Part shown: in pieces, positions 1,236 through 49,150 of the stretch | How the letters are laid out: each line of letters opens with the position of its first letter | Numbering within the stretch: the first letter of the stretch is position 1 | Assembly (NCBI GenBank): GCA_963977015.1 | Contig: CAXBMO010000006.1 | Location: 224,001 to 288,000, forward strand | Length of the DNA stretch: 64,000 bases | Direction of reading: 5' to 3' | Origin: an uncultured bacterium | Lineage (GTDB): Bacteria > Verrucomicrobiota > Verrucomicrobiia > Verrucomicrobiales > DEV007 | Program-made: the position numbers and the translations under genes | Notes under the pieces: generated by a model | The model's input: only the letters and a program-made list of their open reading frames with translations | What the model was told of the DNA's origin: nothing | Databases searched by the model: none

Positions 1236-1254
1236 TCGATCAATGTATCTATTC

Positions 1255-1289
1255 TAGTTCTTGACTCTGTCCAAAACTGGATTCATTCT
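1255..1289 (+). promoter_or_regulatory. furA promoter / probable FurA operator
   Basis: TTGACT (1261-1266)-17 nt-CATTCT (1284-1289), 8 nt before the ATG at 1298; resembles the mycobacterial furA autoregulatory region as I recall it. Confidence 0.55.
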
Positions 1290-1297
1290 TTGGGAGA

Positions 1298-4149
<2,852 letters not shown>

Positions 4150-10632: not shown

Positions 10633-10650
10633 TCGACACACCCTGATTCG

Positions 10651-11127
10651 GTGAACTCAAAAAGGCACAACCTAACAGACAACCTGATATTGGGTTTCGC
10701 CGTTCTGCAGCTGTGTGCGATCGGAATGTTGGGATGCAAATCAATGCCGGAAGTTGTGGCGATGGATTCGCAGGCTCACCCTCAACCGCCATTGTTTCTC
10801 GTTGAACATGAGGTAGGTCCATCCGACACGCTGTGGAATCTGGTAAGGCGATACAATCCCGATCTTTCAGAGGGTGAGGAACTGACCGCAAGGGTGAAAA
10901 AATTGCGAGCCCTCAATCGAATTGGGGGTGATTTGGTCTACCCCGGTCAAACGGTGGTGGTGCCCTCCAGTATGAACTTGGTAAGGGCGCCGACTTCCGG
11001 AAGCGGAGGCGATTCCGGTGAAAAGATCAACGAGGGAACGCGTCAGCTTCAAAACCTCACCGGTCAGGCATCGACTGAAATTCGGCATGCCAAGGCCTCA
11101 GAATTTGGTCAACTTTCTGGCGATTAA
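10651..11127 (+). CDS. LysM-domain lipoprotein
   Basis: Lipobox-like MLGC; HEVGPSDTLWNLVRRY...LNRIGGDLVYPGQTVVVP. Confidence 0.8.
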   Translation: MNSKRHNLTDNLILGFAVLQLCAIGMLGCKSMPEVVAMDSQAHPQPPLFLVEHEVGPSDTLWNLVRRYNPDLSEGEELTARVKKLRALNRIGGDLVYPGQTVVVPSSMNLVRAPTSGSGGDSGEKINEGTRQLQNLTGQASTEIRHAKASEFGQLSGD

Positions 11128-11188
11128 GCTTTTGATCAACCACTTCATCCTTTAATACTTTCTCTATCACTATCACGCAGGATAGGCA

Positions 11189-11620
11189 GTGTCAGGAACC
11201 CAATCGAACTTGGCGAGCCCTGCGTCAACACCAACCGATATTGCAATGACCAAAGGCCAGCTAATGGAAAAATTGATGAAAAAGCTTAGGCTCGGGAAGA
11301 AGTCAACACCCGATCCGCCCCAGTCTGAGACAACGCCTTCACCTGATCCTTCTGCAACGCAGACAGAAAACCAGGGAACAACACACGACACTGCGATGCC
11401 TTCCGGCACCGCATCGTCAGTCCAGCCCGAAGTTGCCTCGGGGCCACCCGTTGGCAGTCCGGTGGCCGGAGGTGCATCCACGATGGGAAGCGAATCCGGG
11501 GGAGCAGTCGCACCAGAACCGCCATCACCGGACGCAAGTGCCGGTCAAATCGGCGGAACGTCGGGCGAGCAAAAACCGGACCAAGCGAAGAAACAGGAAG
11601 AGTTGCCTCCAGACACCTAG
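11189..11620 (+). CDS. Low-complexity Pro/Ser/Thr-rich hypothetical protein
   Basis: Co-oriented ORF after the LysM gene; disordered composition; start may be the ATG near 11246. Confidence 0.45.
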   Translation: MSGTQSNLASPASTPTDIAMTKGQLMEKLMKKLRLGKKSTPDPPQSETTPSPDPSATQTENQGTTHDTAMPSGTASSVQPEVASGPPVGSPVAGGASTMGSESGGAVAPEPPSPDASAGQIGGTSGEQKPDQAKKQEELPPDT

Positions 11621-11758
11621 GGGATCGAATTCGGATCCAGCTTTTCAGGAGTTCCTCTCATTGCTGACCGCGATCCGCCGCTCATCCTGCGGGTCAGCCC
11701 CTGACCGTTTCGCAAAAGTCACTTGCATTCACAGGAAGAACGGACGCTAGGATGCGGG

Positions 11759-13606
11759 GTGACTACCGCCATTCTTACCGCTTTTGTGGTTGGGTTGATC
11801 AGCGCACTATCCCTTCCGCTGGGAACGCTGACTTCGGCGTTTTGGCGACCCGGTGACCGGACGATTGCCTTCCTGATGGCGTTCGGTGGCGGCGCCTTGA
11901 TCGCGGCGTTGACGATCGATCTCGCGGGGCCGGCGTTGGCGAAAGGCCACTTCAATTGGCTCGCATCCGGATGTATCCTCGGCGGATTGCTCTTTGTGCT
12001 CCTCGATCAGACGATCAATCAACACGGCGGTTTCCTGCGAAAGATGTCGACCACCGTCTATCACTTGCGCCTCAAGGAAACCCGCCGTTTCAAACGCGCG
12101 TTGCGACAGCTCAAACGGTTGGAGGTGTTCACCGGGTTGCCGCGCGATACCATTTCGAAATTGACGGAATCGGCGAGGTATCAGCGGGTCAAGAAGGGGG
12201 AAACGCTCTTTTGCGAGGGAGATGTCAGTGGGTGTCTGTATGTGGTCGAGGAAGGTGAGTTCGAGTTGTTAGACCCGAAAGACGGGATGAAGCAACTGAT
12301 GCGGGTGAAGAGGAATGATGCCTTTGGCTACAATGCCTTCCTTACGGGTTGTCCCCACGCGGCGGTGGCGAAGGCGCATCGTGATGGGGGCGTGCTGATT
12401 TTGGCACGGTCGGTCTTCGAGCCGGTGGCGACCGAGTGCGACGTCTTGCAGCACAAGATGACGGAATACTTTGAGGCCGAAGACACCGCGCGCTATCTGC
12501 GGGAACGCCAGGGGCTTACCGGCGAGGAGATCGAAAGCTGGAGATCGACGGCAATCGAGGCGGTGAAGGCCGGCAAGCCGATTCCGTCTGCGGTCGACTC
12601 GGATCGGCAGGAACCGCCGCTGAGCGAAATCCTGGAACAGGTCAGTCGAATCCCGATCTTTCAGGGATTGCCGGACGAGGATATTCAGTTTCTCGCGTCC
12701 TGTTGTTTCACGAAAAGTCATCCGCGCGGTCACACGTTCTTTTATGCGGGAGAGTCGAGCGAGCGGCTCCATATCCTGGAAGCCGGGCAAGTCGTCCTCC
12801 TTGATCCGAAGAAACCGGATCGCAAACCGCTGCGGCTCGATGCCTGCGACGAGTTTGGCGCGCTGTCGTTCCTGACCGGAGCCAAACACAGTGTGAGCGC
12901 GGTCGCCTCCTCCGATGTGACGGTGCGGATTCTCCTGCGTCGCCACTTTGACGAATTGATGAAGCGCTCGCCGGCATTCGCCTCCGCGGTGGAAGACTTC
13001 ATCCAACAGGAAACGCTCGCCCGCTATCTGCAGGACAAGCAACAGTTCGATTCGGACAAAACGGCGCGTTGGGTTTCGCAGGCGGTGGGACGCTCGGAAG
13101 GCGGCAAGCTGTTGCCGTCAGCCGCCGATATGACGCGCGAGATTCAGCAGCACCAGGGCGCGCCGCTCGCCATCTGGCTCGGAATTCTGCTTGATGGCAT
13201 CCCGGAATCGCTCGTCATTGGCGCCAGCGTCGGGAGCAAGGGCTTTGTCAGCATGTCCCTCATTGCCGGGGTCTTCCTGTCCAACTACCCGGAAGCCCTC
13301 TCGAGCTCGGTCGGCATGAAACAGCAGGGAATGCCGTTTCGCCGCATTCTTCTCATGTGGACATCGTTGATGATCCTGACGGGGATTGGCGCCGCGCTCG
13401 GCGTCATCTTCTTCGTCGGGGCGCCACCGGGAATGTTTTCGCTCGTGGAAGGCATCGCCGCGGGAGCCATGCTCACGATGATCGCCCAGACCATGCTTCC
13501 CGAAGCCTACTTGAAAGGTGGCTCCATTACCGGATTCGCAACCCTGTTGGGATTCCTCGCCGCGATCTTTTTCAAGACGCTTGAAGGTGGTGGCGGTGGG
13601 CATTGA
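11759..13606 (+). CDS. ZIP-family metal transporter with two cNMP-binding domains inserted
   Basis: N-terminal TMs (FLMAFGGGALIAAL), two CAP/cNMP folds, C-terminal LDGIPES, FLSNYPEA, GIAAGAML..IAQTMLPEA. Confidence 0.85.
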   Translation: MTTAILTAFVVGLISALSLPLGTLTSAFWRPGDRTIAFLMAFGGGALIAALTIDLAGPALAKGHFNWLASGCILGGLLFVLLDQTINQHGGFLRKMSTTVYHLRLKETRRFKRALRQLKRLEVFTGLPRDTISKLTESARYQRVKKGETLFCEGDVSGCLYVVEEGEFELLDPKDGMKQLMRVKRNDAFGYNAFLTGCPHAAVAKAHRDGGVLILARSVFEPVATECDVLQHKMTEYFEAEDTARYLRERQGLTGEEIESWRSTAIEAVKAGKPIPSAVDSDRQEPPLSEILEQVSRIPIFQGLPDEDIQFLASCCFTKSHPRGHTFFYAGESSERLHILEAGQVVLLDPKKPDRKPLRLDACDEFGALSFLTGAKHSVSAVASSDVTVRILLRRHFDELMKRSPAFASAVEDFIQQETLARYLQDKQQFDSDKTARWVSQAVGRSEGGKLLPSAADMTREIQQHQGAPLAIWLGILLDGIPESLVIGASVGSKGFVSMSLIAGVFLSNYPEALSSSVGMKQQGMPFRRILLMWTSLMILTGIGAALGVIFFVGAPPGMFSLVEGIAAGAMLTMIAQTMLPEAYLKGGSITGFATLLGFLAAIFFKTLEGGGGGH

Positions 13607-13696
13607 TCGTCCTGACGTTCCCGATCCAAAGCGTTCTTGTTCTTGGCAAAAGGCTGGACTCAGCTACGCTTCAAGACCCGAATTCTTCCGACGACG

Positions 13697-13885
13697 ATGC
13701 TTCTACTCCTTCCCATTCTCCTGGCGGCGGTCGCCTATGTCATCGCGGGATTCATCATCGCCTGCCGAACGAAGAATCCGGTCGTGCGATGGGGGTTTGG
13801 GGTTTCGGCCGCGCTCACGCTCTTGGCGCTCATCTTCGGAGCCTTCGTTGTCTTCTTCGGCACCCAGCTTCCAGCTCCTCCCTGA
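13697..13885 (+). CDS. Small two-TM membrane protein
   Basis: 62-aa ORF with two hydrophobic helices. Confidence 0.55.
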   Translation: MLLLLPILLAAVAYVIAGFIIACRTKNPVVRWGFGVSAALTLLALIFGAFVVFFGTQLPAPP

Positions 13886-13892
13886 GGCGGGA

Positions 13893-15677
13893 TCACCAGG
13901 ATTTAATGGTATTGCTGAGCCGTTTCTCGGTCTGTGGATCTCTCGAAACGTTGCGATACGTGATGTCGTAGTGATAGGAAAGAAGATCGTCGGCAAACTG
14001 AATTGGGATCTCCTCGTTTTGGAGAGATTGGAGATGTTGCGCCAAAGTGCGTCCCGTCGGCATGGGATGACCGAGGCGCGCGCAGGCTTGATGGAATAGC
14101 ATGAGATAGCCTGGAGTCGGTGACGAATGCGCGGAAAGTCCCTGCATCGTGCCACGACTGGACCTTCCGCGTTGGAAGGCCCGCAGGAAAACCAGAATGG
14201 TGAGCCCGATTCCGAGGGCGATGAAAACCCACACTGAACTGCTGGGAAGCGCGATTCCAATCCGCCGACCGTTTCCTTCGCCCTCGTTGTGGAGGAACTC
14301 TTTCAATGCGGGGGGATTCTCGCCGGGAGTGGTCGTCATCGCCTGTGGCCGTGAAGGTGTCGGCGTTGTGTCAAACACGACCCAACCGTAGTCCTGAAGG
14401 TGGATCTCGGTCCAGGCGTGGCCGTGTTTGCTAAGAAAAACGAATTGGTCGTGCTTCTGGTAATGTCGCCCCCCGGTCCAACCAAAACAAATGCGGGACG
14501 GGACTCCCAGCTCGCGCGTGAGGAGCGCGGAGGCCGAGGCAAAGTGCACGCAAAAGCCCTTTCCGGTTTCCGGGTTGCCCAGAAAGTTCTCCAACGCGCA
14601 CTTCCCATTGTCCGGATAGTTCACGAGAAGCGAATAGGAGTAGGTGTTGCGCAGCCATTCCTGCAATTGGACGAGGCGTTCGCTCAGCGAGGCGGTGCCG
14701 TCAAACTGCATCGAGAGGGACTGGATCTGCGCTTGCAAGCCGGGATGGGAGGTCGGCGCGCGATAGACCGCCTCTGTCTCCCCGGGCGCGATTGAGCGCC
14801 CATTGGAAACCAGGTCTTCCAACCGCAGCGGCGATGAACTGGCTTCGTATTGGTAGTGTTTGACTTGAGGGCTGAGGATAGGGAGTAGCCAGGTTCCCGG
14901 TGAAATTCGGGTCACTTCCGGAAGCTGGACCGTAAGGCCGCCCTGGAGAAGGTTGACCGTATTCAACCGGTCGAAGTGGCGCCCGTGCAGGATTGAGTAT
15001 TCGTAGGAAGGTGCCGAGTTGGGCGCATGCAAAGGAATCAGTCCATCGCGATTTGGCGACACGGTTTGCGAATCCGTGACGGCTTGAGTGGTCCAGCGAT
15101 CACCGTCAAAAAAATCGTGCGCGAACGCGCTGATGTAGACCGGGCCGGAGTTGGCGAGCCGTTCGGCGTCTTTGGAGGTCTTCATCTCCAAACGAACCTC
15201 CGGTTTGTCCTTCAGCGTCAGGTTCGCCGAAGTCGGAACCGCGGCTCCGCTTGGATCAAAGGTGGTCCGCACTTCGGTGTGAACGTCGCCGCTGAAGAAC
15301 TGCATCTGCCCCGCCTCCGCGGCATCCCAATCAATCTCCCCCTCCTCGCCGGCCTCCAGTTGAACCTCGTCAGTCCGGACGAGTTTGTAGCTCCATCGGG
15401 TGGCCGTGGTGGGTCCGAAAACGAAGAGGAGATAGAGCACAACCAAACTCAGGGTGATGGCGCTCCCGCCCGCGACCCGGTCGAGCCGGCTGGGTTTTTG
15501 GCGGTGTTGAAAGTGGGGCGCATGAGGCGTTGGTGCGAGCCGGCTCATCAGCCCAAAGGCAGCTGCCAGCGAAGCAAGCGCGACAAACGTTCGGAGCCAG
15601 AAGTCCAATTGCACCGGCCATCCTCGAAGCGTCAGGAAGGCGAGCAGCAAGGCGGGAATGAGGATGAGGCGCTCCAT
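13893..15677 (-). CDS. Membrane transglutaminase-like protein (TgpA type)
   Basis: GFCVHFASA..L.RELGVPSR, HAWTEI, W..FD.TP (Cys-His-Asp triad). Confidence 0.88.
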   Translation of the reverse strand: MERLILIPALLLAFLTLRGWPVQLDFWLRTFVALASLAAAFGLMSRLAPTPHAPHFQHRQKPSRLDRVAGGSAITLSLVVLYLLFVFGPTTATRWSYKLVRTDEVQLEAGEEGEIDWDAAEAGQMQFFSGDVHTEVRTTFDPSGAAVPTSANLTLKDKPEVRLEMKTSKDAERLANSGPVYISAFAHDFFDGDRWTTQAVTDSQTVSPNRDGLIPLHAPNSAPSYEYSILHGRHFDRLNTVNLLQGGLTVQLPEVTRISPGTWLLPILSPQVKHYQYEASSSPLRLEDLVSNGRSIAPGETEAVYRAPTSHPGLQAQIQSLSMQFDGTASLSERLVQLQEWLRNTYSYSLLVNYPDNGKCALENFLGNPETGKGFCVHFASASALLTRELGVPSRICFGWTGGRHYQKHDQFVFLSKHGHAWTEIHLQDYGWVVFDTTPTPSRPQAMTTTPGENPPALKEFLHNEGEGNGRRIGIALPSSSVWVFIALGIGLTILVFLRAFQRGRSSRGTMQGLSAHSSPTPGYLMLFHQACARLGHPMPTGRTLAQHLQSLQNEEIPIQFADDLLSYHYDITYRNVSRDPQTEKRLSNTIKSW

Positions 15678-32017: not shown

Positions 32018-32199
32018 AGAAAGATTTCTTTCAAAAAACCTGGGACAGGCCCCGAGAATACCCGGCGCTTCATTCCGCCGCAGTTTCGTGGTGGATCTAA
32101 AGACCTACGCATCACTCAAGTAAGAAAAAAGAAACGGCCCCGCCTGTAAACGGGAAACTGTGCTCGTTTGCGTCCCTGCGATTCAGCCTTCGGGGCGGC

Positions 32200-32352
32200 A
32201 TGGCAGCTCGCGCATTGCGCTTCTTCCATGTGCGCGGCCAGTTTTTCGCGAGTCGTGAGCGGTTGGTCGGCGAGGCGGGAAAGCTGGGGCACGTTTGGCG
32301 GTGCTGGAGGTGGAGGGTCGTTGAGCAGATGACGCAGGACTCAGGCGCCCCG
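32200..32352 (-). pseudogene. DUF1588/cytochrome fragment
   Basis: RGA*VLRHLLNDPPPPAPPNVPQL...REKLAAH...CASCH; paralogous to the DUF1588 part of 35143-37557, with TGA at the conserved Trp. Confidence 0.8.
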
Positions 32353-40317: not shown

Positions 40318-42369
40318 TCACTCGGTTTCGACTGCGATCAACGCATGCGGGATGCCGTGCCAGCCCCTGGCGTCGGTTCCGTTGTGGGGCGGAATCGTCA
40401 GTTTTCCGGCGGGCGCGAGGCGTCGATACAACTGGTCGCGGTAGGTCTTTCCGTCCGGCCCTTTCCATTGCGCCTCAACCCCGGGAACCAGCTCCCAATC
40501 CTTGGGCAACGCCGGAGTTCCGCGATCCATCACGAGGAGAAAGACCGGCCCGCCTTTCGGCAAATCCAGCTCCCAGCCCTGGCCCGGGCTTTGGCCTGAA
40601 CCGCGCCCGACCGTCCAGAGGGTTGCTTGGGGTGGAAACACGCCGTCCGGCAGCGCCGTGAACTCAAATTCCGTTGTGCACCGCGTCGCGCCGGCGCGAA
40701 GGGGCTGAGATCGCGGCTTGGAATCCACGTGGCTGAATCCCGACTCGCCTTCGTAGCTGATGTCGCGTTTGCCGTCCCAATTCGCGCCGTCGGGAATCTG
40801 AAGAATCAAGCCGTCCTCCAGCAGTCGGGTCCGAATCTTCTCATAACTCACCTCCTGAACGGCAACCTCGTCATCCACCGCCAACGCGGCAGCCGTTCCC
40901 GCAGCCTGGCCCAACATCATGAAGGTGCACAGAATCCGGATTCCGGAGTAACCGATGTAGCTGGAGCTGGGGCAGGTCGGCGTGATCAGGTTTTCTGCTT
41001 CGGCCCGCTTCGGAACCAGCGCCCGATAGCTCACCCCGAACGGCGACCAGCCGCCGTCGCCGTAGACGAACCCTTCGTTGTATGCCGCGCCGTCGCGAAC
41101 GATCCGCCGGGCGTGATGCGCGTCGGGCGGCCACCACGCCATCGTCACCGGATCCTCAACCGGCTCCGGATCCGGCCAGCCCATGTGCCGTTCGGTGTGG
41201 ACAAAGTCGGATACCATGCGCCGTGCGCTGCGGATGTAGAGCCGTCGCGGCCAATGCCCGTTGTCGGTAAATTCATCGCGGCAAAGTCCCCAGCCTTCCC
41301 ACTTCCTGCGCTGCGATTCCGGAACGGTGGGGTCGTTCTGGAGAAACCAGATCAACCCGCGGGTGAAGTCCTCGTGATGCCGCACGATGCGCTCCTGCTC
41401 CGCGTAGTCGCCCGCCGGGTAACCCACGTTTTCGCCATACAAATTGGCCGAAAGATCGTGCCAACTTCCCAGGTCCGTCTTTCCATTTGGGAGCCGCGCC
41501 CCGGGAGCGAACAGCTGGCCGCCCGCGGCAAAGTAGCGCCGGTAGATCTCGTAGGTCGCCGGGTCATAGTTCGCCGGTTTTTCGATCGGCACGACCAGGT
41601 CCGGGTTGCGGGTCAGGCAGAGGCGAAAGCAGAAGCCCATGATGTGCGGATCGGCCGCGCCGGGTGTTCCCAGCTCACCGGGTTGGATCGTCGCGATGAG
41701 CCCGCTGGCGGGATTCCCCGGTTCACGGTAAGGATCGATGCGGATCCGGAAATTGCGGTGATGGCTCTCCGCGCGAATGCCGTTGAGCGTCTCGCCGTAG
41801 GTCGCGTTGCTCTCGCGTCCCGTTGCCGTCGTCACCCCGGCGAAATGCAGCAGGTGCCCCTCGATCGACGCATCGACGAAAACCCGCCCGGTGATCTGCG
41901 TCCCGTCTTCCAGAACCACCGCAGTCAGCCGCGTTCCGTCCTTCTTCACACCGGCGGCGCCCTCGCGAATCCGGCTGCCGCGATGGATCGAGATTTGCCC
42001 GGCGTGTTCCCCTAACATGGCCTCAATCACCGCCTCCGCCGTGTGCGGCTCGTAACGCGGAACACCCTTCAGCACGGGGCCTGACCGACCGTAGTAAGCG
42101 TCAATCCTGCGGTAGAACTCCCGCGCGATGCCGGAAACCACAGCTTGGTTGCCGTGCTTGATGTCGCCCGCGATTCCCTCCACCACCATCCCGCCCGGAT
42201 GACCGTTCGGCTCGATCAGCGCGACCGATTTCCCCATTCGCGCGGCCTGGATCGCGGCAGTGAAACCCGCTTCGGAGCCCGAGAGGATCACCACGTCGGC
42301 GTCCGTCGCCGCAACTGCGGTCGAAATGGCAGATGCCAGGAAGAGGGAAATGAGAAATCGGAAGATCAT
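40318..42369 (-). CDS. Secreted FAD-dependent oxidoreductase with extra C-terminal domain
   Basis: AAIQAARMG, FVDASIEG, GRES...YGE, LYIRSARRM, SYRALVPK, MMLGQAAGTAA. Confidence 0.85.
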   Translation of the reverse strand: MIFRFLISLFLASAISTAVAATDADVVILSGSEAGFTAAIQAARMGKSVALIEPNGHPGGMVVEGIAGDIKHGNQAVVSGIAREFYRRIDAYYGRSGPVLKGVPRYEPHTAEAVIEAMLGEHAGQISIHRGSRIREGAAGVKKDGTRLTAVVLEDGTQITGRVFVDASIEGHLLHFAGVTTATGRESNATYGETLNGIRAESHHRNFRIRIDPYREPGNPASGLIATIQPGELGTPGAADPHIMGFCFRLCLTRNPDLVVPIEKPANYDPATYEIYRRYFAAGGQLFAPGARLPNGKTDLGSWHDLSANLYGENVGYPAGDYAEQERIVRHHEDFTRGLIWFLQNDPTVPESQRRKWEGWGLCRDEFTDNGHWPRRLYIRSARRMVSDFVHTERHMGWPDPEPVEDPVTMAWWPPDAHHARRIVRDGAAYNEGFVYGDGGWSPFGVSYRALVPKRAEAENLITPTCPSSSYIGYSGIRILCTFMMLGQAAGTAAALAVDDEVAVQEVSYEKIRTRLLEDGLILQIPDGANWDGKRDISYEGESGFSHVDSKPRSQPLRAGATRCTTEFEFTALPDGVFPPQATLWTVGRGSGQSPGQGWELDLPKGGPVFLLVMDRGTPALPKDWELVPGVEAQWKGPDGKTYRDQLYRRLAPAGKLTIPPHNGTDARGWHGIPHALIAVETE

Positions 42370-42559
42370 GAGGATGGTTCGAAAATTGGGGCTGTTTCTG
42401 GGCGCCGCGAAGCTGCCGTTCCGCCCGCAACCGCGCGGAGATCGGCTCGGCGGGGGATGGGATTTGGCGGAATCTTCCCCGGAAAGGGATCGTTGTCGAA
42501 AAAGAATCCGCTCGACACACGTGAAGTGACCACTTCGCTTGGAAGGCCCCTGTCCGATC

Positions 42560-44977
42560 ATGAAACATCAACTCTTCCCCACCATCGCCGCCGCCCTGAC
42601 GGTCGTCATTTTCTTTGACCCGGCCGGGTTGCCCGCTGCCGGCGGAAAATCCGACATGCCGAACCCGGATTTCACCAAGGGCGATGCGATTCCGAAAGGG
42701 GCCACGCACGATTGGACACTCGGGCCGACCGGGACTCGGGGCTGGATGTATAGCAACAAGCTGGAAACGAGCGAGGCCCGTCAGATTTACCTGACCGAGG
42801 TGGAGCTCGGCTCGCCCGCCGATGGCGTTCTCGAGGTTGGCGATGTGATCCTGGGCCTCGGCGGCGAGCCGTTTTCGCAGGATCCACGCACCGCGTTCGG
42901 CAAGGCGATCGGAAGGGCGGAAGCGACCGATGGCGCCCTCACCCTGATGCGTTGGCGGAATGGAAAGACCGAGTCGGTCGCCGTGAAACTCCCCGTGCTT
43001 GGCGCCTACAGCTCGACGGCTCCCTTCCATTGTCCGAAGTCGCAGCGCATTCTCGAACAAGGTTTCAAGGTGCTGGCGGAGCGGATGAAGGCCGACCCCG
43101 GTGCCGGAAACGGGATCGTCCGTTCGCTCAACGCGCTTGCACTTCTTGCCAGCGGCAATCCGGACTATCTCCCCCTCGTCCGGGAACAGGTCGGGAAAGC
43201 CGCCCAGTATTCCGATCCGGATCGCAAATCGCTTCATTCGTGGTTTTACGGTCCGGCCACGATCCTCGTTGCGGAATACACCCTCGCAACGGGGGACGAG
43301 AGTTTCCTTCCCGATCTAACGCGACTTGCCAGGGAGATCGTCCGCGGGCAAAGCGCCGTGGGATCGTGGGGGCACAGGTTCACGCAGCCGGGTGGAAGGC
43401 TCGCCGGCTATGGCATGATGAATTCACCCGGCATTCCCCTGACCATCTCCCTCATCCTGGCTCGCAAGGCCGGGGTCGAGGATCCTGATCTGGATCGGGC
43501 CATTGAGAACAGTCTGATGTTGATCCGTTTTTACACCGGAAAAGGAAGCGTTCCCTACGGCGATCATCATCCCTGGACTCAGACCCATGACGACAACGGC
43601 AAGAACGGCATGGCTGCCGTGATGTTCAACCTGGTGGGGGAAGCCGCGCCCACGGAGTACTTCTCTCGAATGAGCGTCGCCTCGTATGGCGCCGAGCGAG
43701 ACACGGGACACACCGGCAATTTCTTCAATATCCAGTGGGCGCTGCCAGGCGTGGCGTTGTCAGGCCCCAACGCGAGCGGGGCGTGGATCGAGGAATTCGG
43801 CTGGCACTATGATCTTGCCCGCCGCTGGGACGGAACCTTCGTCCACCAGGGACCGCCGAGCATGCGACCGGACAAGTATCGCGGCTGGGACACGACGGGT
43901 GTCTACCTGCTATCCTACGCCCAACCGCTTGGAACCATTCATCTCACGGGCAAACAACCAAGCGTCGCGCAACCGGTCACCGAAGAGACCGCGGACAGCC
44001 TGATTGAGGACGGGCGGGGATGGAGCCCGAAAGAGAAGCACGCGGCCTACCGCGGGCGCAGCAGGGACGAACTGTTTGAAGGGCTGAAGAGTTGGTCTCC
44101 GGTCGTTCGCGAACGCTCGGCCATGGAGCTGGCAACGCGGGACGGCGAGTTGGTGACTCGTCTGATTGAACTGCTCGGTGACGATCATGACAAACACGCC
44201 CGATTGGGAGCCTGTCAGGCGCTGATCGAACTGGGAAAACGCGGTGCACCCGCCGTTCCCGCACTTCGGAAAACGCTCCAGGCAGACGATCTCTGGCTGC
44301 GCGTCAAGGCCGCCGAGGCCCTGGCCGCCATCGGTGATGCGGCCATGGATGCGGTCCCAGAGTTGCTCTCGATGCTCACGGTAACCGATCCGATGAGCGA
44401 TCCCCGGGGCATGGAACAGCGCTATCTCACCTTTGCCCTCTTCCAGCAACGGGGCGGCCTGTTGAAGAATTCCCTTGAAGGGGTTGATCGCGAAGCGCTT
44501 TACGAGGCTGTGCGGACCGGGCTCCGCAATGAAGACGGCCGCGCCCGCGGTGCGCTTGGATCGGTCTATCGGAATCTCTCTTCCGAGGAGATCCAACCGT
44601 TACTTCCCGCCATTCATCGCGCCGTGATCGAGCCCGCCCCCAGCGGAGTGATGTTTGCCGACGGCATTCGTCTGAGCGGTCTCGAGGTCCTCGCCAAGCA
44701 CCGCATCGCAGAAGGTCTGCCCCTCTGTCTGGAAGTGATGGAACTCGACCGCTGGGGAAAACAGGGCCGAATCACAAAGTGCCTCAACACCCTGCAGATC
44801 TACCGGGGCGCGGCCAGATCCATGCTTCCGGAACTCGAAACGCTCGAAGAGGAACTGAAGGCGCATCGGGAAGCCAAGGGAATGAAATCCCAGATTGAGC
44901 TGGTCCGCCAAACCATCAACGTCATCAAATCGGACCAGAATCCGCCGGAACTGCGACCGTTGAAAGCAACTCGTTAG
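42560..44977 (+). CDS. Secreted DUF6288-like protein with PDZ-like and HEAT-repeat regions
   Basis: WTLGPTG.RGW, GSPADGVL.VGDVI, GSVPYGDH, HTGNFF, HEAT-like helices. Confidence 0.75.
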   Translation: MKHQLFPTIAAALTVVIFFDPAGLPAAGGKSDMPNPDFTKGDAIPKGATHDWTLGPTGTRGWMYSNKLETSEARQIYLTEVELGSPADGVLEVGDVILGLGGEPFSQDPRTAFGKAIGRAEATDGALTLMRWRNGKTESVAVKLPVLGAYSSTAPFHCPKSQRILEQGFKVLAERMKADPGAGNGIVRSLNALALLASGNPDYLPLVREQVGKAAQYSDPDRKSLHSWFYGPATILVAEYTLATGDESFLPDLTRLAREIVRGQSAVGSWGHRFTQPGGRLAGYGMMNSPGIPLTISLILARKAGVEDPDLDRAIENSLMLIRFYTGKGSVPYGDHHPWTQTHDDNGKNGMAAVMFNLVGEAAPTEYFSRMSVASYGAERDTGHTGNFFNIQWALPGVALSGPNASGAWIEEFGWHYDLARRWDGTFVHQGPPSMRPDKYRGWDTTGVYLLSYAQPLGTIHLTGKQPSVAQPVTEETADSLIEDGRGWSPKEKHAAYRGRSRDELFEGLKSWSPVVRERSAMELATRDGELVTRLIELLGDDHDKHARLGACQALIELGKRGAPAVPALRKTLQADDLWLRVKAAEALAAIGDAAMDAVPELLSMLTVTDPMSDPRGMEQRYLTFALFQQRGGLLKNSLEGVDREALYEAVRTGLRNEDGRARGALGSVYRNLSSEEIQPLLPAIHRAVIEPAPSGVMFADGIRLSGLEVLAKHRIAEGLPLCLEVMELDRWGKQGRITKCLNTLQIYRGAARSMLPELETLEEELKAHREAKGMKSQIELVRQTINVIKSDQNPPELRPLKATR

Positions 44978-45006
44978 GGCAAAGCCGGGATCAACTCCTG
45001 TTGCGT

Positions 45007-45559
45007 TAAGAGGAATGGCGCTTGGTGAAGAGGGGCATCGTGCAATTTGCGTTGGTCCACAGGGTTCATCTTCGTGGAACCGCGATCGACAACCAGACAG
45101 TTGTCCTCGTTCGCGAAGGCATAACACGGAAGAACCGCCCTCAAGGAGTCACCGCTTCACCGGCATGAAGCCGGTGGTGGGTTTCGCGCCTTCGAATTCG
45201 ATTCTGGTCGTTAATCGTGCTTCCACCGGCGCAAGACCGGAGGAGATCAATGGTGGTTAACCAAGCGCCATTCGGGGTAAGAGGAATGGCGCTTGGATAA
45301 CGAGCTTCGTCGGCAAAGGCAAGCTGAAGGCTTCCTAGCCATTAGCCCCGGGTCGAGCGCCAGCGAACACCCGGGGTCAGGCATCGAACCCAAGATCCAT
45401 CCCGGGAGGGATGGTAGCATCGTGGCTGCGATCCCTGCCGGGATCGCCAGTTCTTGACCTTTGGTTCCCCGGGTATCGCTTCACTCAACCCGGGGCTAAT
45501 CGCTGAACAAGCCTCCGGCTTTGTTTCCCTCGTAAACCAAGCGCCATTCGGGCCAAGAG
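45007..45559. repeat. Two tandem ~260-bp elements bounded by GAATGGCGCTTGG / CCAAGCGCCATTC inverted repeats, with internal REP-like hairpins
   Basis: Inverted repeats at 45013/45273 and 45284/45549; internal CCCCGGGT...ACCCGGGG and CACCGGC..GCCGGTG palindromes. Confidence 0.8.
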
Positions 45560-45560
45560 C

Positions 45561-45821
45561 CGCGAAGACCAATGAATGGCTGGATCAACAAGACGTTCCC
45601 TCGATCGCAACACCCGTGGATCAGCATTCGATATCCCGACGGCCCGAAAGGTCGACCGAAGGAGAATCCATGACTGATGGGAACCGCCCGGTGCAATGGA
45701 GCGAAGCGACATAGATAGCCGAAAGGCTACCGCAAAGCGGCAAGGGAGGAACGACCGCAGTCAAACCCGCGCGCCGGGTGGTGTGGGGGGGAGCGGGTTC
45801 AATCCCCGGTTCCTACCCAAT
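45561..45821 (+). mobile_element. 3' remnant of a group IIC(-attC) intron: IEP C-terminus, domain V (interrupted), domain VI
   Basis: TNEWLDQQDVPS / WISIRYP maturase-like tail (frameshifted, stop at 45671); GAACCGCCCGGTGC...ACCCGCGCGCCGGGTGGTGTGGGGG; ends CCTACCCAAT at an attC inverse core. Confidence 0.85.
45695..45764 (+). repeat. ~70-nt AATGG...TCAA structured insertion element, copy 1 (inside intron DV)
   Basis: Homologous to 46613-46678. Confidence 0.75.
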
Positions 45822-46368
45822 TCGCATAGATTTTGTGGTCGACCCAATCACCATAGAGATTCTCTGCTCTCTCTTGAATCTTGATAAGGTCGAATCCTAG
45901 ATTTTCAGCGATTCGTTCGCTCGCCAGGTTTCCAATTGCAGTGCGAATCTCAAAGTTCACAATCCCATATGCACTCTCGAAATACGACATAAGTTCTCTG
46001 CAAGCGTTGGTGATGATTCCGCAACCGCGAAAGGTCGGATCTAAACTATACGACAATTCTGCGAGTCTAGGCTCCCAATCAATTCTTTTTGCTGCGAGCA
46101 TTCCGATAATAGACTCTTTGTGCAGAACAAAGAACCTTAGCGATCTACCTTCAGACTTAGATCTCGAAGATTGGTCGTAGCGCCGCGTGATGTCTTCTTC
46201 GCATTTGACATCGTCCACCCAAGAAAGCCACCTACGCAAATCGAAACGATAGCAGTCGATCATCCGGTAGAACTCTTTCGAGTCGTCCCGGCGCATGAGC
46301 CGGATACTCACTTCGCTGGTGACGCGAATAGTCAACTCATCCGGCAGTCCTGTGATTTGTTCCTGTAT
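45799..46368 (-). CDS. GNAT acetyltransferase, RimL/RimJ-like (gene cassette)
   Basis: LRRWLSW, AELSYSL...FRGCGI, NLASERIAENLGF; AAGGAG RBS followed by ATA (mutated or non-canonical start); 3' end reads into the intron. Confidence 0.8.
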   Translation of the reverse strand: MQEQITGLPDELTIRVTSEVSIRLMRRDDSKEFYRMIDCYRFDLRRWLSWVDDVKCEEDITRRYDQSSRSKSEGRSLRFFVLHKESIIGMLAAKRIDWEPRLAELSYSLDPTFRGCGIITNACRELMSYFESAYGIVNFEIRTAIGNLASERIAENLGFDLIKIQERAENLYGDWVDHKIYANWVGTGD

Positions 46369-46387
46369 TCGATCTCCTTTCTTGTTT

Positions 46388-46473
46388 TGCCAACGTTTTG
46401 GTTCTGGTGCCGCCGGGTAGGCGGGCCACATTCTCCCACGCTTTGGCGGTCTCCAGCAACCGATTGTGTGTGC
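46388..46473 (-). other. attC site (degenerate R'')
   Basis: Minus strand GCACACAC AATC GGTTGCTGG...CCAGAACC AAAAC GTTGGCA; L boxes pair with one extrahelical G. Confidence 0.7.
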
Positions 46474-46612
46474 CCAGCATGGGCGTTGTTCTACGGGGTG
46501 CAAGTCCCCGGTGTGAGAATCGTTGCTGAAACGATGAAAATCAGAGTAACCAGAAGCACTAGCAGAAGCCAACTGCGTCCGGGTAACCGGTCGTGGGGAG
46601 GAAGGTTATGCG

Positions 46613-46678
46613 AATGGGAGCGAAGCGGACATCGACAGCCGTTAGGCTGCCCGAAGGGTGGAGTGCCAGCGCTATCAA
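46613..46678 (+). repeat. AATGG...TCAA structured insertion element, copy 2
   Basis: AATGGGAGCGAAGCGGACATCGACAGCCGTTAGGCTGCCCGAAGGG...TCAA. Confidence 0.75.
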
Positions 46679-46723
46679 TGGGCGCATGAGATGCAGCTTT
46701 ACAGCCAAACCTTCGGGGAATTC

Positions 46724-46814
46724 GCCGAACAATCAGCACGTCACTGTCTATGGGCCAAAGCTTAGCTAGCCAACCAAAAAGCGAAAGGCAAAACCCATAC
46801 AACGGTTGTTCGAG
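46724..46814 (-). other. attC site (degenerate)
   Basis: Minus strand CTCGAAC AACC GTTGTATGGG...CCCATAGAC...GTTCGGC. Confidence 0.55.
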
Positions 46815-47123
46815 CATTAGCCTTCAAATGGCAACGAATCATGTTCGCGTGTTGGCAACGCGGGGAAACCGATGACGATCTCAAATACGAAGCAAGCTTA
46901 TCAAGGCGAGGCAGTCAATTCGCAGCTTCGCCGGGCCAAGAGGAATCGAAAAAGCGCTTCAAGAACGAAAAATATCCGCAAGGATCGCCCTTCTTTCGAA
47001 GTCGGCGTAGCCGGAACATTGTAATCGATCAAGGGGAAGAAGAATTCAATGGCGACCTGTACCAAAAAGCAAAAAACTATCGACAGACCACCTCAGATGT
47101 TCGAATCGCCGATAGCCAGCTGT

Positions 47124-47210
47124 CATCGTCGTGATATTCACGCCGTAAATGTGGCTTTCTCGTTTGCTGCACGCAAGAGAGATCGTCCGCAAGGGGCGAC
47201 GGTTCGCTGA
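47124..47210 (-). other. Decayed attC site (R'' clear, right arm unclear)
   Basis: TCAGCGAAC after the cassette gene is the exact complement of GTTCGCTGA that opens the cassette. Confidence 0.45.
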
Positions 47211-47256
47211 TCGCGGAGAATGCTGTCTCCAGTGGTGGGCCCGAAATATGCTTCCT

Positions 47257-47787
47257 TTAGGACTTTGGTGTTTTTCCTGATCCAATGATCACATCCGCGA
47301 TTCCATCACAGAGCCAATCCAGCCCCCCATTCAAAAATCGGATAGCTCCGCGCATCTGCTTCCTCCTTTTGGGTGAAGCTCTTGAATAAGTATCCTCAAG
47401 CCCAGTACCTGCATACGCGCCTCGGATGAAATGTACAAATTGGATCCACATAGGAGCTGTAATTGCTATCCCAAGCCATTTCGCTACTCCATTAAGCTTC
47501 ATTATAAGCCCTATCACTGCTAAGAGGAGACTAACTGCTCCGATAATAGAAAGTACCAGTTTGATCTGTGCGCTTAGATTTCCCTTTCTCGCTTCCTTCC
47601 AGTTCGCAGCAATTTCCTCGACTTCGTCACTCAGGGGGTCGGGCCTACTCTTTGTCTCGGTGTGCGTTTCCCATTGAAACCCACATTTGGGACATGTGAT
47701 GCGGAGTGGTTTTTGACTTACCGGAATCCGCAGCGACTGACCACATCTGACGCAATCAATGATTCTCTTCGCAGGTGGATTGTACAT
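47257..47787 (-). CDS. Zinc-ribbon membrane protein (gene cassette)
   Basis: CVRC...CPKC followed by two TM helices; lower GC; bounded by att cores. Confidence 0.75.
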   Translation of the reverse strand: MYNPPAKRIIDCVRCGQSLRIPVSQKPLRITCPKCGFQWETHTETKSRPDPLSDEVEEIAANWKEARKGNLSAQIKLVLSIIGAVSLLLAVIGLIMKLNGVAKWLGIAITAPMWIQFVHFIRGAYAGTGLEDTYSRASPKRRKQMRGAIRFLNGGLDWLCDGIADVIIGSGKTPKS

Positions 47788-47829
47788 TTGGGTGTCGTTT
47801 CGGCGTTGAGTCTACAAACCCGGATCTTC

Positions 47830-47888
47830 AGCGAACGTCCGGCACCACCCGTACCGATCAGGCGTCGGTGTGCGTGCCATTGTTAGCC
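47830..47888 (-). other. attC site (59-base element)
   Basis: Minus strand GGCTAAC AAT GGCACGCAC ACCGA..TCGGT ACGG GTGGTGCC GGAC GTTCGCT. Confidence 0.88.
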
Positions 47889-47907
47889 TAGCCGTAGTGC
47901 CAAGACA

Positions 47908-48615
47908 CTACTCAAGGATTGCCCTCTTTTTCTTCAGAAACTCTTCTTCAGTCAAAACTCCCTTTTCTCTGAGTGCCCCCAACCGCTCCAATTGAACCAG
48001 TTGGTCCTCGTCGTTAGAATTCTTGATTTCCTGTAGCTTGCCAAGATATTTTATCACGGAATCAGCGATATCATCAATAGCTGCTGAAGTCGAAAACTCT
48101 CTACGGTCGGACGCTACCATTAATCTTCCCTCCTTGGTTATCATGTATTTAGTCACCTCCTGGAGTGGGATTCTCTCACTCTTCACTTCCAGTGTTGCGA
48201 TGGTAAGTGCTGTGGAGAGAATGTTTCCTAAGATACCGCCACCCATGTCTTTTTCGACTCCCTTTGACTCTATGAGAAAGATATTCTCGAACGTGCAAGC
48301 AATAATGCCGTTGCCTGTAATCCATATCTTCCTAACTTCCTCAGCAGGTTGAAGTTCTTCTCGAAGTTTGTCCGGGTATTTCTCATATACATCAATCGCA
48401 GACTTCATTCTGATTTCCTCTTCACCGGGATATGAGACAGGTTCGCCGCGATGAAGCTCGTCTATCGCTTCTCGGAAAACATTATCTACTTTGTCGCCCA
48501 GAAAGATCGCTTTACAATTGACGCATTGCACTTCGGCCCTCCGCAACACTTCGGGTATTTGGTGTTCTTGGCCACATTTGGGGCATGGCACAATCAGAGC
48601 GTTTTCGTTATTCAT
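47908..48615 (-). CDS. Zinc-finger plus SHOCT domain protein (first gene cassette)
   Basis: CPKC...CVNC at the N-terminus; LERLGALREKGVLTEEEFLKKKRAIL SHOCT at the C-terminus. Confidence 0.82.
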   Translation of the reverse strand: MNNENALIVPCPKCGQEHQIPEVLRRAEVQCVNCKAIFLGDKVDNVFREAIDELHRGEPVSYPGEEEIRMKSAIDVYEKYPDKLREELQPAEEVRKIWITGNGIIACTFENIFLIESKGVEKDMGGGILGNILSTALTIATLEVKSERIPLQEVTKYMITKEGRLMVASDRREFSTSAAIDDIADSVIKYLGKLQEIKNSNDEDQLVQLERLGALREKGVLTEEEFLKKKRAILE

Positions 48616-48629
48616 TTTCAAGATTGTGG

Positions 48630-48700
48630 GGCTAACAGTATAATATTCCACTTGAAGGGCCGATATCCAAATCATGAAATTGGGCTTAAATGATTAAGAA
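48630..48700 (-). other. Putative attI site
   Basis: GTTAGCC core (48636-48630) opening the first cassette, preceded by AT-rich non-palindromic DNA. Confidence 0.55.
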
Positions 48701-48846
48701 ATGTTGATTGGTTGCCTTTGGTATTCATGATGATTCACGAGGGTTGTGGGAATTGTCAAAATCTGGCTGCCGCTCTGAGATTGCTAGTGGACTAGCAATA
48801 CGGGATTTTGCCGATTTCGACAAGGAAGTTTCGAGACGTTTTTGAG

Positions 48847-48925
48847 GTGGAATATCGGAGGGAGTGGAGGAGGCGGATTGACTTTGATGATTGGGTGGAG
48901 CTTCTTGGACTTGCCATCCATCGGC
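48847..48925 (+). pseudogene. Possible 5' stub of a deleted integron integrase
   Basis: Divergent from the array where intI is expected; MEYRREWRRRIDFDDWVELL then runs into REP-like DNA. Similarity to verrucomicrobial IntI N-termini is from memory only. Confidence 0.3.
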
Positions 48926-48927
48926 TT

Positions 48928-49150
48928 GAGCCCAGCCTGAAAGGCATGGAACATGCCAGCCCCGGCCAGAGGGCGGAACGCCCGGCGGGCCGGGGAAAAT
49001 ACCGGTGGTCATGGAAAGGCCTGAAAGGCCGGGACACAGGTGGACCGCCCCTTTCAGGGGCCGATTTCCCCCTTCGGCAATCCCAGGGCCGGGGTGGTGC
49101 TCTCGCAACGGCGCGACGAGCGCGGCGGCGGGGGTTGAGTCGGCTGGAAT
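48928..49150. repeat. REP-like palindrome cluster
   Basis: GCCTGAAAGGC twice, CCCTTTCAGGG, CCCCGGCC...GGCCGGGG. Confidence 0.65.

What the first reader, a model, noticed from the sequence alone, without database searches (positions are those of the whole stretch)
45695..46678. A ~70-nt structured micro-element that appears to target hairpin loops, including a ribozyme catalytic domain
Seen: two diverged copies, AATGG-AGCGAAGCG-ACATAGATAGCCGAAAGGCTACCGCAAAGCGG...TCAA (45695-45764) and AATGGGAGCGAAGCGGACATCGACAGCCGTTAGGCTGCCCGAAGGG...TCAA (46613-46678). They keep the same ends and the same two small hairpins (AGCC-loop-GGCT; CCGC/GCGG versus CCC/GGG) despite sequence changes. Copy 1 sits in the apical loop of intron domain V; copy 2 lies between ATGCG and CGCAT arms inside a cassette. 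There are no terminal inverted repeats or obvious target duplication. Inference: a non-autonomous ssDNA/RNA-mobilised parasite of other mobile elements, possibly moved by an HUH enzyme. I cannot assign it to a named family.
Basis: partly seen in the sequence, partly recalled or inferred. Interest (0 to 1): 0.8.

Follow-up and report, generated by a model that had tools for sequence, protein, structure and literature searches.

The report
Tiny hairpin-built insertion element in Verrucomicrobia
The two 70-base repeats are real copies of a widespread, previously undescribed family of miniature insertion elements of Verrucomicrobia that land after the triplet GAA, including in the loops of self-splicing intron domains and, in frame, inside ordinary genes.

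Summary
Confirmed. A covariance model built only from other genomes finds both copies at exactly 45695-45764 and 46613-46678. Copy 1 sits in the apical loop of domain V of a 5'-truncated group II intron. Copy 2 sits in a domain I hairpin of another intron fragment, not in a cassette. Empty sites exist: an intact intron on contig C17 has both sites empty, with flanks 91-97% identical. The element belongs to a family of mostly 60-70 nt found in 62 of 151 related genomes and restricted to Verrucomicrobiota. It has four small hairpins closed by a long-range helix, with strong covariation. Two hairpins are GCGNAGC "mini-hairpin DNA" motifs. It has no inverted ends, begins AA and ends CAA, and follows a G (90 of 104). 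Sites include GAAA tetraloops of intron domains, transposase genes and host genes, where 7 of 7 insertions keep the frame. Hairpin loops are about twice enriched, not obligatory. Movement as single-stranded DNA by a Y1 HUH (RAYT/IS200-like) enzyme is plausible but unproven. All 19 sense intragenic sites follow an in-phase GAA codon; this is unexplained.

The parts
45695..45764 (+). Copy 1 of the mini-element (70 nt), in the apical loop of group II intron domain V
   Evidence: R2 39.0 bits, E 7.4e-8; R1 70.8 bits. The same sub-lineage sits in the same domain V site in G017 (9 copies), L108 and L064.
46613..46678 (+). Copy 2 of the mini-element (66 nt), in a domain I hairpin of a second intron fragment
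   Evidence: R2 69.3 bits, E 2.7e-15. It is 82% identical to the third genomic copy, in the same domain I site of the C4 intron.
45556..45694 (+). 5'-truncated group II intron, 3' fragment: end of the reverse-transcriptase ORF remnant and the 5' strand of domain V
   Evidence: 93.5% identical over 139 nt to C17 intron positions 1704-1841; the alignment stops at the insertion point.
45765..45821 (+). 3' strand of domain V, domain VI and the intron 3' end
   Evidence: Pairs with 45682-45694 in the fold. Equivalent parts of the sister copies align to C17 intron positions 1844-1905. Read against the Rfam RF00029 alignment of the C17 copy.
46464..46612 (+). Group II intron 5' fragment (domain I) upstream of copy 2; its first bases are degenerate
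   Evidence: 83.9% over 155 nt to C16 and 81.7% over 60 nt to the C17 intron. No Rfam hit in the window itself.
46679..46697 (+). Continuation of the domain I hairpin 3' arm after copy 2; homology to the intron ends here
   Evidence: Alignment to C17, C4 and C16 read by eye.
45799..46572 (-). GNAT acetyltransferase ORF between the two intron fragments, antisense to both. It is a neighbour, not part of the element.
   Evidence: Pfam Acetyltransf_3 9.3e-18; NCBIfam PRK10151-like 8.5e-18, below its cut-off.

Best explanation
The repeats are two old copies of a family of non-autonomous mini insertion elements of Verrucomicrobiota. Most copies are 60-70 nt, the mode is 62, and the range is 36-98. 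The top strand folds into a compact set of small hairpins: P1 and P4 capped by GCGNAGC or GCGNNAGC mini-hairpins, then P2 and P3, with P2-P4 closed by a 2-bp long-range helix, P5. The element has no inverted ends. It starts AA and ends CAA, and it sits after a G and mostly before A or T. The simplest reading is insertion immediately 3' of GAA (rarely CAA) with no target duplication. Because GAA is part of GAAA tetraloops, loops of structured RNAs such as group II intron domains V, I, II and IVa are frequent sites. In proteins the sites are Glu codons. Copies survive where they do little harm: terminal loops, dead or multicopy mobile elements, and host genes when the net insertion is a multiple of three and is translated. 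In this window both copies are passengers in decayed intron fragments and probably do nothing. Shown: family membership, structure, empty and filled sites, site preference, frame-keeping in host genes. Inferred: the element moves as single-stranded DNA, cut and rejoined by a Y1 HUH transposase of the RAYT/IS200-IS605 type supplied in trans.
For: Mobility. The filled C4 intron and the empty C17 intron share flanks 91.2% and 96.9% identical, and 69 nt replace 3 nt. The window domain V is filled, while the 93.5%-identical C17 copy is empty. The domain IVa site in L024 matches the empty C17 sequence once the element is removed and one AA is kept. Two near-identical copies sit at different sites of one IS66 gene in L101.
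Spread. 62 of 151 relatives have a hit. 66 of 80 pattern loci are confirmed by the model, all with Verrucomicrobiota-type or unclassified titles; 0 of 11 loci from other phyla are confirmed. 16 of 151 genomes in a phylum-wide sample have a hit.
Structure. 88.9% of cells are paired against 79.4% in shuffles (0 of 500 reach it). 158 double-change cells against 51. Slid controls give 23-38%.
DNA-level hints. GCGNAGC lies in the first 22 nt of 129 of 143 distinct copies, with N free (A81, C22, G16, T10). GCGN(N)AGC lies in the last 26 nt of 72 of 143. These are the sequences described as extraordinarily stable mini-hairpin DNA (PMC13037366, abstract seen). There are only 12 one-sided (G-U type) changes against 158 two-sided.
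Not removed from mRNA. 7 of 7 Pfam-supported host-gene insertions have length minus 2 divisible by 3, against 8 of 22 in mobile-element genes. 69 of 143 distinct copies have such lengths.
HUH analogy. No inverted ends, similar hairpin motifs in direct orientation at both ends (the 42-nt minimal form), a short conserved left flank, and a strand bias of 19 sense to 5 antisense. Y1_Tnp genes occur in 121 of 151 relatives, with 13 matches in this genome. A GTAG-type REP carrying the same 13-nt apical motif flanks Y1 genes on G000 C16 and in G079. By coordinates it also lies beside Y1 genes in G015, G017, G035, G042 and G069. REP against element over 151 genomes: both 31, REP only 12, element only 31, neither 77.
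Against: No transposase is linked. None of the 32 Y1 loci examined carries the element's ends, and only 1 of 32 matched the motif scan. 31 element-positive genomes lack the matching REP, including G094, which has 13 element copies and 0 REP hits. G021 and G044 have the element but no Y1 hit. The conserved target is only 1-3 nt, far shorter than the 4-5 nt of IS200/IS605 elements (recalled). Kin are not independent, so the 2x2 table overstates the link. Many copies ride inside other repeats (G079, G032, G094), so copy number overstates transposition. The strict codon phase of sense intragenic sites is not predicted by a DNA-level mechanism. The sense bias and the link with retroelements would also fit an RNA route.
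Confidence: 0.5

Rival explanations
1. RNA-mediated spread. A small RNA with fixed ends is copied into cDNA by a group II intron reverse transcriptase through template switches at AA microhomologies. It therefore lands in intron RNA and in other transcripts, which are then fixed in DNA by retrohoming or cDNA recombination.
For: Sense bias of 19 to 5 at Pfam-supported intragenic sites against a 53% null. All intron RNA-domain sites seen are sense. 9 of 29 best hits lie in group II introns. AA at both junctions. The in-phase GAA rule, 19 of 19 against a 41.5% null, hints at a translation-linked step.
Against: The hairpin caps are DNA mini-hairpin motifs, and G-U intermediates are rare. Antisense insertions exist. 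So do tandem arrays and copies in non-transcribed-looking repeats. No master gene with a promoter and terminator was identified. Fixation in chromosomal genes would need rare cDNA recombination.
Confidence: 0.15
2. Conservative site-specific recombination by a serine, tyrosine or IS110/IS607-like recombinase that uses AA as the crossover dinucleotide. That would leave AA on both sides without a true duplication.
For: AA at the start in 96 of 104 copies and CAA at the end in 104 of 104. No inverted ends. Little target specificity beyond the dinucleotide, as recalled for IS607-type elements.
Against: A circle of 40-70 bp is very small for a double-stranded synapse. The structure is strand-specific: GNA loops exist on one strand only. 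No recombinase is linked, and none was looked for.
Confidence: 0.1
3. It is not mobile. It is a lineage-specific structural expansion of these group II introns, duplicated from domain I into domain V by recombination.
For: All three copies in this genome lie in group II intron sequence.
Against: In other genomes the same element lies in IS66, IS91, IS630, IS256, ISAs1 and IS5 transposase genes, in hsdM, AcrB-type, GcvT-like and YceI genes, and in intergenic hairpins. Closely related introns have empty sites.
Confidence: 0.02
4. The copies have a host function, for example a protein-binding or transcript-stabilising hairpin module like some REPs, and are kept for that. This does not exclude mobility.
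For: The fold is conserved with covariation across families. Several copies lie just upstream or downstream of genes, in terminator-like hairpins.
Against: The contexts are too varied: coding, ribozyme, dead transposons. No conserved genomic neighbourhood was seen. Only three decayed copies remain in this genome.
Confidence: 0.1

Closest known systems
Rickettsia palindromic elements (RPE)
   Same: Short, hairpin-forming repeats found in frame inside protein-coding genes that remain open, as well as in RNA genes and intergenic DNA, with the mobilising enzyme unknown. The in-frame point is cited from passages of PMC3733652; the rest is recalled.
   Different: Different phylum, and about half the size. 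Built from GNA-loop mini-hairpins. Has a defined junction (G, then AA...CAA). Sequence similarity was not tested because no RPE sequence was at hand.
REP / REPIN elements with RAYT (Y1 HUH) transposases
   Same: Small structured repeats that lack coding capacity. A GTAG-type REP in these genomes carries the same 13-nt apical motif and flanks Y1 genes.
   Different: REPs are single 20-40 nt palindromes with a GTAG or CGTC tag, mostly extragenic and often in inverted pairs (PMC3733652 abstract and passages; PMC3337134 abstract). This element is multi-hairpin, its motif copies are direct, it is often intragenic, and it does not flank the Y1 genes.
IS200/IS605 elements and their miniature derivatives (e.g. 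IS608; recalled knowledge)
   Same: No inverted ends and no target duplication. Subterminal hairpins on one strand. Insertion 3' of a short fixed sequence, with the right end closing on a related short sequence (here GAA and CAA). Strand bias.
   Different: The target here is only about 3 nt. The hairpins abut the ends. No autonomous partner with these ends was found in 32 Y1 loci.
Twintrons and nested group II introns
   Same: A mobile sequence lodged inside a group II intron, including its ribozyme domains.
   Different: Those inserts are themselves introns that splice out. This one is 60-70 nt, has no ribozyme features or Rfam match, and also occupies ordinary genes, where it is kept in frame.
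Mini-hairpin DNA, GCGNAGC / GCGNNAGC (PMC13037366, abstract)
   Same: The caps of P1 and P4 have exactly these sequences, with N free to vary.
   Different: That work describes a physical DNA motif, not a genetic element.

Membership tests
Normal group II intron domain V variant (Rfam RF00029) | About 34-nt hairpin with a 4-nt apical loop that matches the model | tested here: not met
   No RF00029 hit in window 42000-49000 even at E up to 10. The uninterrupted C17 copy scores 46.4 bits against a cut-off of 40. The window hairpin carries 70 extra nt in its loop.
Any Rfam 15 family | Match at the gathering score | tested here: not met
   0 matches in the whole window. Nothing overlaps copy 2 at E up to 10; only a tRNA-Sec chance match (18.3 bits, E 8.1, gathering score 47) overlaps the last 21 nt of copy 1.
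MITE | Terminal inverted repeats | tested here: not met
   The ends are AAYSGG... and ...KCAA and are not complementary.
MITE | Target-site duplication | tested here: inconclusive
   AA at both ends (96 of 104 start AA; 104 of 104 end CAA). This may be a 2-nt duplication, or insertion 3' of GAA without one.
REP / REPIN | Single 20-40 nt palindrome with a GTAG or CGTC tag, often in inverted pairs | tested here: not met
   Four or five helices, 36-98 nt, motif copies in direct orientation, no tag.
REP / REPIN | Copies flank a RAYT gene | tested here: not met
   0 of 32 Y1 loci carry the element's ends. Only a different REP that shares the apical motif flanks Y1 genes.
IS200/IS605-derived miniature element | No inverted ends, with subterminal hairpins on one strand at both ends | tested here: met
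   P1 and P4 carry the same GNA-capped motif in direct orientation. The 42-nt form is just these two.
IS200/IS605-derived miniature element | Insertion 3' of a conserved tetra- or pentanucleotide | tested here: inconclusive
   Position -1 is G in 90 of 104 and C in 13. Position -2 is G in 57 of 104. Only GAA or CAA is conserved.
IS200/IS605-derived miniature element | An autonomous relative with the same ends that encodes TnpA | tested here: not met
   None among the 32 Y1 loci examined: 12 top-scoring loci plus 20 from five element-rich genomes. Not an exhaustive search.
IS200/IS605-derived miniature element | Orientation tied to the replication direction | not testable with these tools
   No complete genome with many copies was available.
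Integron attC site | Imperfect inverted core sites (RYYYAAC...GTTRRRY, recalled) next to cassettes and an integrase | tested here: not met
   The ends do not fit that pattern. Copies lie inside introns and genes, not at cassette ends.
RPE-like in-frame selfish DNA (behavioural class) | Insertions inside open host genes that keep the reading frame | tested here: met
   7 of 7 Pfam-supported host-gene insertions have a net length divisible by 3. One example is an AcrB-type gene with 698- and 620-aa open flanks covering profile positions 2-413 and 419-1020.
RPE-like in-frame selfish DNA (behavioural class) | Sequence relationship to Rickettsia RPEs | not tested
   No RPE sequence was available from a tool.

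The most novel reading that the evidence does not exclude
Insertion is coupled to RNA and translation. The element enters transcripts right after an in-frame GAA codon, or after GAA of a GAAA tetraloop, and is fixed in DNA through group II intron reverse transcription. If so, a 60-nt RNA module would be able to colonise even the catalytic domain V of the ribozymes that copy it. A further possibility is that the domain V-filled intron stayed mobile, which would explain the repeated 3' fragments with the insert.
Probability: 0.12. Interest if true: 0.9.

Novelty: new variant of a known kind. Interest (0 to 1): 0.62.

Why it matters
The work defines an unannotated repeat family across a major environmental phylum. 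Such repeats will confuse gene calling (extra 20-22 residue segments, apparent frameshifts) and RNA annotation (introns that escape Rfam because domain V is split). It gives a natural series of 60-70 nt insertions in group II intron loops, including the domain V tetraloop, that could be tested for tolerance. It offers a second, independent case of in-frame selfish DNA besides Rickettsia. The element is also made of the most stable known DNA mini-hairpins. Together with the strict GAA-codon phase, that points to a mobilisation mechanism not yet worked out.

Tried and rejected
Rfam on the window, at gathering scores and at E up to 10, gave no intron or ribozyme hit. ARAGORN found no tRNA or tmRNA. 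A tRNA-like or tmRNA-like reading of 45677-45820 was dropped once the C17 intron was seen.

I first read the ORF remnant after copy 2 (46766-46930) as an IS110 C-terminus. Support is only NCBIfam E 0.0098 at 15 bits, and Pfam finds nothing. Its 94% repeat on C41 lies in a junk ORF with a weak reverse-transcriptase match.

An attC or integron reading of the G017 array was rejected. The repeated unit is an intron 3' fragment.

Single-sequence folds of the elements alone are not exceptional, with z from -1.5 to +0.1. Structure support comes from covariation only.

The hairpin-loop rule holds only as a twofold enrichment.

A full-length intron carrying the domain V insert was not found. Every copy examined is 5'-truncated, including 9 in G017.

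A Y1 gene bounded by the element was not found.

Sequencing runs: no RNA holder is listed. Contigs of four DNA runs from one study carry the filled state, and none joins across either element. One contig is the empty C17-type copy of the same organism. This gives no information on expression or polymorphism.

Earlier findings of this scan were not open. Supplementary files of papers were not consulted; the REP tables of PMC3733652 might list Verrucomicrobial families.

A weak R2 hit at 32168-32231 (-) looks like chance.

Full report
OBSERVATION. The two stretches exist as described. A covariance model made only from copies in other genomes (alignment A7, model R2) finds window 46613-46678 at 69.3 bits (E 2.7e-15) and 45695-45764 at 39.0 bits (E 7.4e-8) with all filters off. 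The next window hit is at E 0.014 and looks like chance on inspection. The copies are 61% identical overall and 81% over their first 37 columns. The 6.9-Mb genome holds just one more copy, on contig C4.

WHAT SURROUNDS THEM. Rfam finds nothing in the window. Contig C17 of the same genome, however, holds an apparently intact group II intron:
- RF02001 at 99.8 bits, RF01998 at 36.2 bits and RF00029 at 46.4 bits.
- A 431-aa ORF scoring 415.8 bits to TIGR04416 (cut-off 300), with RVT_1 and GIIM domains.

Window 45556-45694 is 93.5% identical to the end of that intron up to the 5' strand of domain V. The alignment stops exactly where copy 1 begins. After copy 1 come the 3' strand of domain V, domain VI and the intron end. 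The domain V stem still forms around the insert. So copy 1 is a 70-nt insertion in the domain V apical loop of a 5'-truncated intron.

Copy 2 lies in a domain I hairpin of a separate, degenerate 5' fragment (46464-46697). An ORF-less intron copy on C4 has the third element copy at the same domain I site. There, 69 nt replace 3 nt of the C17 intron, and the flanks are 91.2% and 96.9% identical. C16 carries another empty domain I site. Empty and filled alleles therefore exist for both sites.

A FAMILY. Model R1 finds the element in 62 of 151 related genomes at E up to 0.01, with up to 22 matches per genome. Of these, 66 are confirmed by the model, and all 66 have Verrucomicrobiota-type or unclassified titles. 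None of the 11 loci from other phyla is confirmed. An even sample of the phylum gives 16 of 151 genomes, mostly in the window's class. I found no description of the element in four full-text searches or in Rfam.

ANATOMY. On 103 distinct copies (A6), a structure of 18 pairs is 88.9% paired, against 79.4% in column shuffles (0 of 500 reach it). It shows 158 cells changed on both sides against 51 expected. Slid controls give 23-38%. The helices are:
- P1, a stem around a GA-flanked GC/GC hairpin capped by GNA.
- P2, 5 bp, with A-U/U-A and C-G/U-A swaps.
- P3, 3-4 bp, with a GNA-type loop.
- P4, the same cap motif as P1.
- P5, a 2-bp long-range helix that swaps A-U (53 copies) for C-G (34 copies).

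GCGNAGC occurs in the first 22 nt of 129 of 143 distinct copies, with N free. GCGN(N)AGC occurs near the 3' end of 72 of 143. These are the sequences reported as extraordinarily stable mini-hairpin DNA (PMC13037366, abstract). Only 12 one-sided (wobble-type) changes accompany the 158 two-sided ones. Both points hint that the folded species is DNA. A 42-nt form consists of just the two capped hairpins in direct orientation. Forms of 50, 83 and 98 nt and tandem arrays also exist.

WHERE IT LANDS. Over 104 complete, non-redundant copies:
- The base before the element is G in 90 and C in 13.
- The element starts AA in 96 and ends CAA in all 104.
- The next base is A in 58, T in 26, C in 17 and G in 3.

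Removing the element and keeping one AA reproduces the empty C17 sequence at the domain IVa site of L024. It also restores the conserved protein motif at every intragenic site I checked by eye. The simplest reading is insertion 3' of GAA with no duplication. A 2-nt AA duplication cannot be excluded.

In intron RNA domains the sites are GAAA-type tetraloops. These include the domain I hairpin, the first hairpin of the RF01998 region, and domain V of two further introns (L095, L116) besides the window lineage. Flanks form a stem of 5 or more pairs at 26 of 134 unique sites, against 10.8% of 15,270 control GAA sites (p about 0.002). For 6 or more pairs the figures are 14 of 134 against 4.3%.

Of the best hit in each of 29 relatives, 9 lie in group II introns. 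Seven have an Rfam group II hit beside the element, one is shown by BLAST (L017) and one by Pfam (L030).

GENES. Using Pfam on stop-free flanks, I count 19 independent sense intragenic sites:
- IS91 (2 sites), intron reverse transcriptase (2), IS66 (4), IS630 (2), IS256 (2), ISAs1 and IS5.
- An AcrB-type pump, hsdM (2), YhcG, and a long gene with a Poly_export/SLBB domain.

I count 5 antisense sites: reverse transcriptase (2), IS256, a GcvT-like gene and YceI. From 1,528 long ORFs of this genome, 53% sense is expected.

All 7 host-gene insertions have length minus 2 divisible by 3, against 8 of 22 in mobile-element genes. Across all distinct copies the figure is 69 of 143, and the modal length is 62. 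Frame-keeping in host genes argues that the element stays in the mRNA and is translated, as reported for Rickettsia palindromic elements (passage in PMC3733652).

Unexplained: at all 19 sense sites the preceding G is codon position 1, so the element follows an in-phase GAA (Glu) codon and the right flank starts a codon. The null for GAA followed by A, C or T is 41.5%, which gives about 5e-8. The five antisense sites show no such rule. Stop codons in the other frames explain only part of it: frame a is open in 65% of copies, frame b in 52% and frame c in 36%.

MECHANISM. Shown: it inserts, it is strand-specifically structured, and it prefers G-AA-W.

Inferred: single-stranded DNA transposition by a Y1 HUH enzyme. 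The grounds are as follows.
- The element resembles IS200/IS605-type ends (recalled knowledge): no inverted ends, direct hairpins on one strand, a short fixed left flank, and a right end closing on a related triplet.
- Its hairpin caps are DNA mini-hairpin motifs.
- Y1_Tnp genes are abundant: 121 of 151 relatives, with 13 matches in this genome.
- A GTAG-type REP has, as its loop, the same 13-nt motif as P1 and P4. This REP flanks Y1 genes on G000 C16 and in G079. By coordinates it also lies beside Y1 genes in five more genomes. It co-occurs with the element: both 31, REP only 12, element only 31, neither 77. At genus level the counts are 14, 2, 7 and 7. Kin are not independent.

Against this reading:
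- No Y1 gene is bounded by the element (0 of 32 loci).
- G094 has 13 copies and no such REP.
- The target is very short.
- The codon phase is not predicted.

I put this mechanism near 0.5, an RNA/reverse-transcriptase route near 0.15, and a dinucleotide-crossover recombinase near 0.1.

THE WINDOW ITSELF. Both copies are passengers in dead intron pieces. The domain V-filled 3' fragment recurs at other loci, always 5'-truncated. There are 9 copies in G017, 7 of them in one array alternating with opposite-strand ORFs, plus copies in L064 and L108. I cannot tell whether a master intron with a filled domain V was mobile.

VERDICT. A real and well-observed feature. It is a new variant of the small structured repeat elements of bacteria, with unusual targets and an unexplained codon-phase rule.

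Noticed in passing
window 45013-45273 and 45284-45549: Two adjacent units of about 260 nt, each bounded by a 13-nt inverted repeat (GAATGGCGCTTGG and its complement), with relatives on at least 10 contigs. A relative sits in domain I of the C4 intron between 10-bp direct repeats, at a site that is empty in the C17 intron. This is a classical MITE, distinct from the mini-element.
   Followed up: partly
L002 (G000 C17) 848-2733, minus strand: An apparently intact group II intron with a 431-aa reverse transcriptase/maturase ORF. Its domain V reads CGC where the model has AGC, and its apical loop is not GNRA.
   Followed up: partly
window 46766-46930 (+): An ORF remnant weakly like the C-terminus of IS110-family transposases (NCBIfam E 0.0098, far below cut-off). 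Window 46827-47104 is repeated at 94% on C41 and in part on C30 and C16.
   Followed up: partly
G000 C16:25242-25821 and about 12 other places: A three-hairpin REP family whose middle hairpin loop is the mini-hairpin motif shared with the element. Two copies in inverted orientation flank a Y1 (RAYT-like) gene. The pattern occurs in 43 of 151 relatives, with up to 56 copies per genome.
   Followed up: partly
L044 (G017 C25:66000-85900), about 8900-14900: An array of 7 units of about 170 nt (the last bases before domain V, domain V with the insert, and domain VI), all on the minus strand, alternating with plus-strand ORFs. The arrangement is cassette-like and mirrors the window's GNAT gene.
   Followed up: partly
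L182 and L184 (G028): Tandem arrays of element variants (42-98 nt) separated by a constant 6-nt spacer and preceded by an 8-nt repeat tract.
   Followed up: no
L226-L233 (G094): Most of the 13 copies lie in a composite repeat: a T-tract plus AACCAC, then the element, then a short tandem ACAC-type repeat. An element-less version lies 100-150 nt upstream in 4 of 8 loci.
   Followed up: partly
L105, L126, L127, L040, L223: Type I restriction-modification genes (hsdM, and near hsdS) are hit repeatedly. Two elements sit in one hsdM in L105 and two in L223. The site before the FYTP motif is used in two genomes. The L040 and L223 assignments are by eye only.
   Followed up: no
window 42539-44977 (+) and L048 3205-7263: A DUF6288/HEAT/PDZ protein gene lies next to the repeat-rich region in the window. 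In G015 a related gene is bracketed by two element copies.
   Followed up: no
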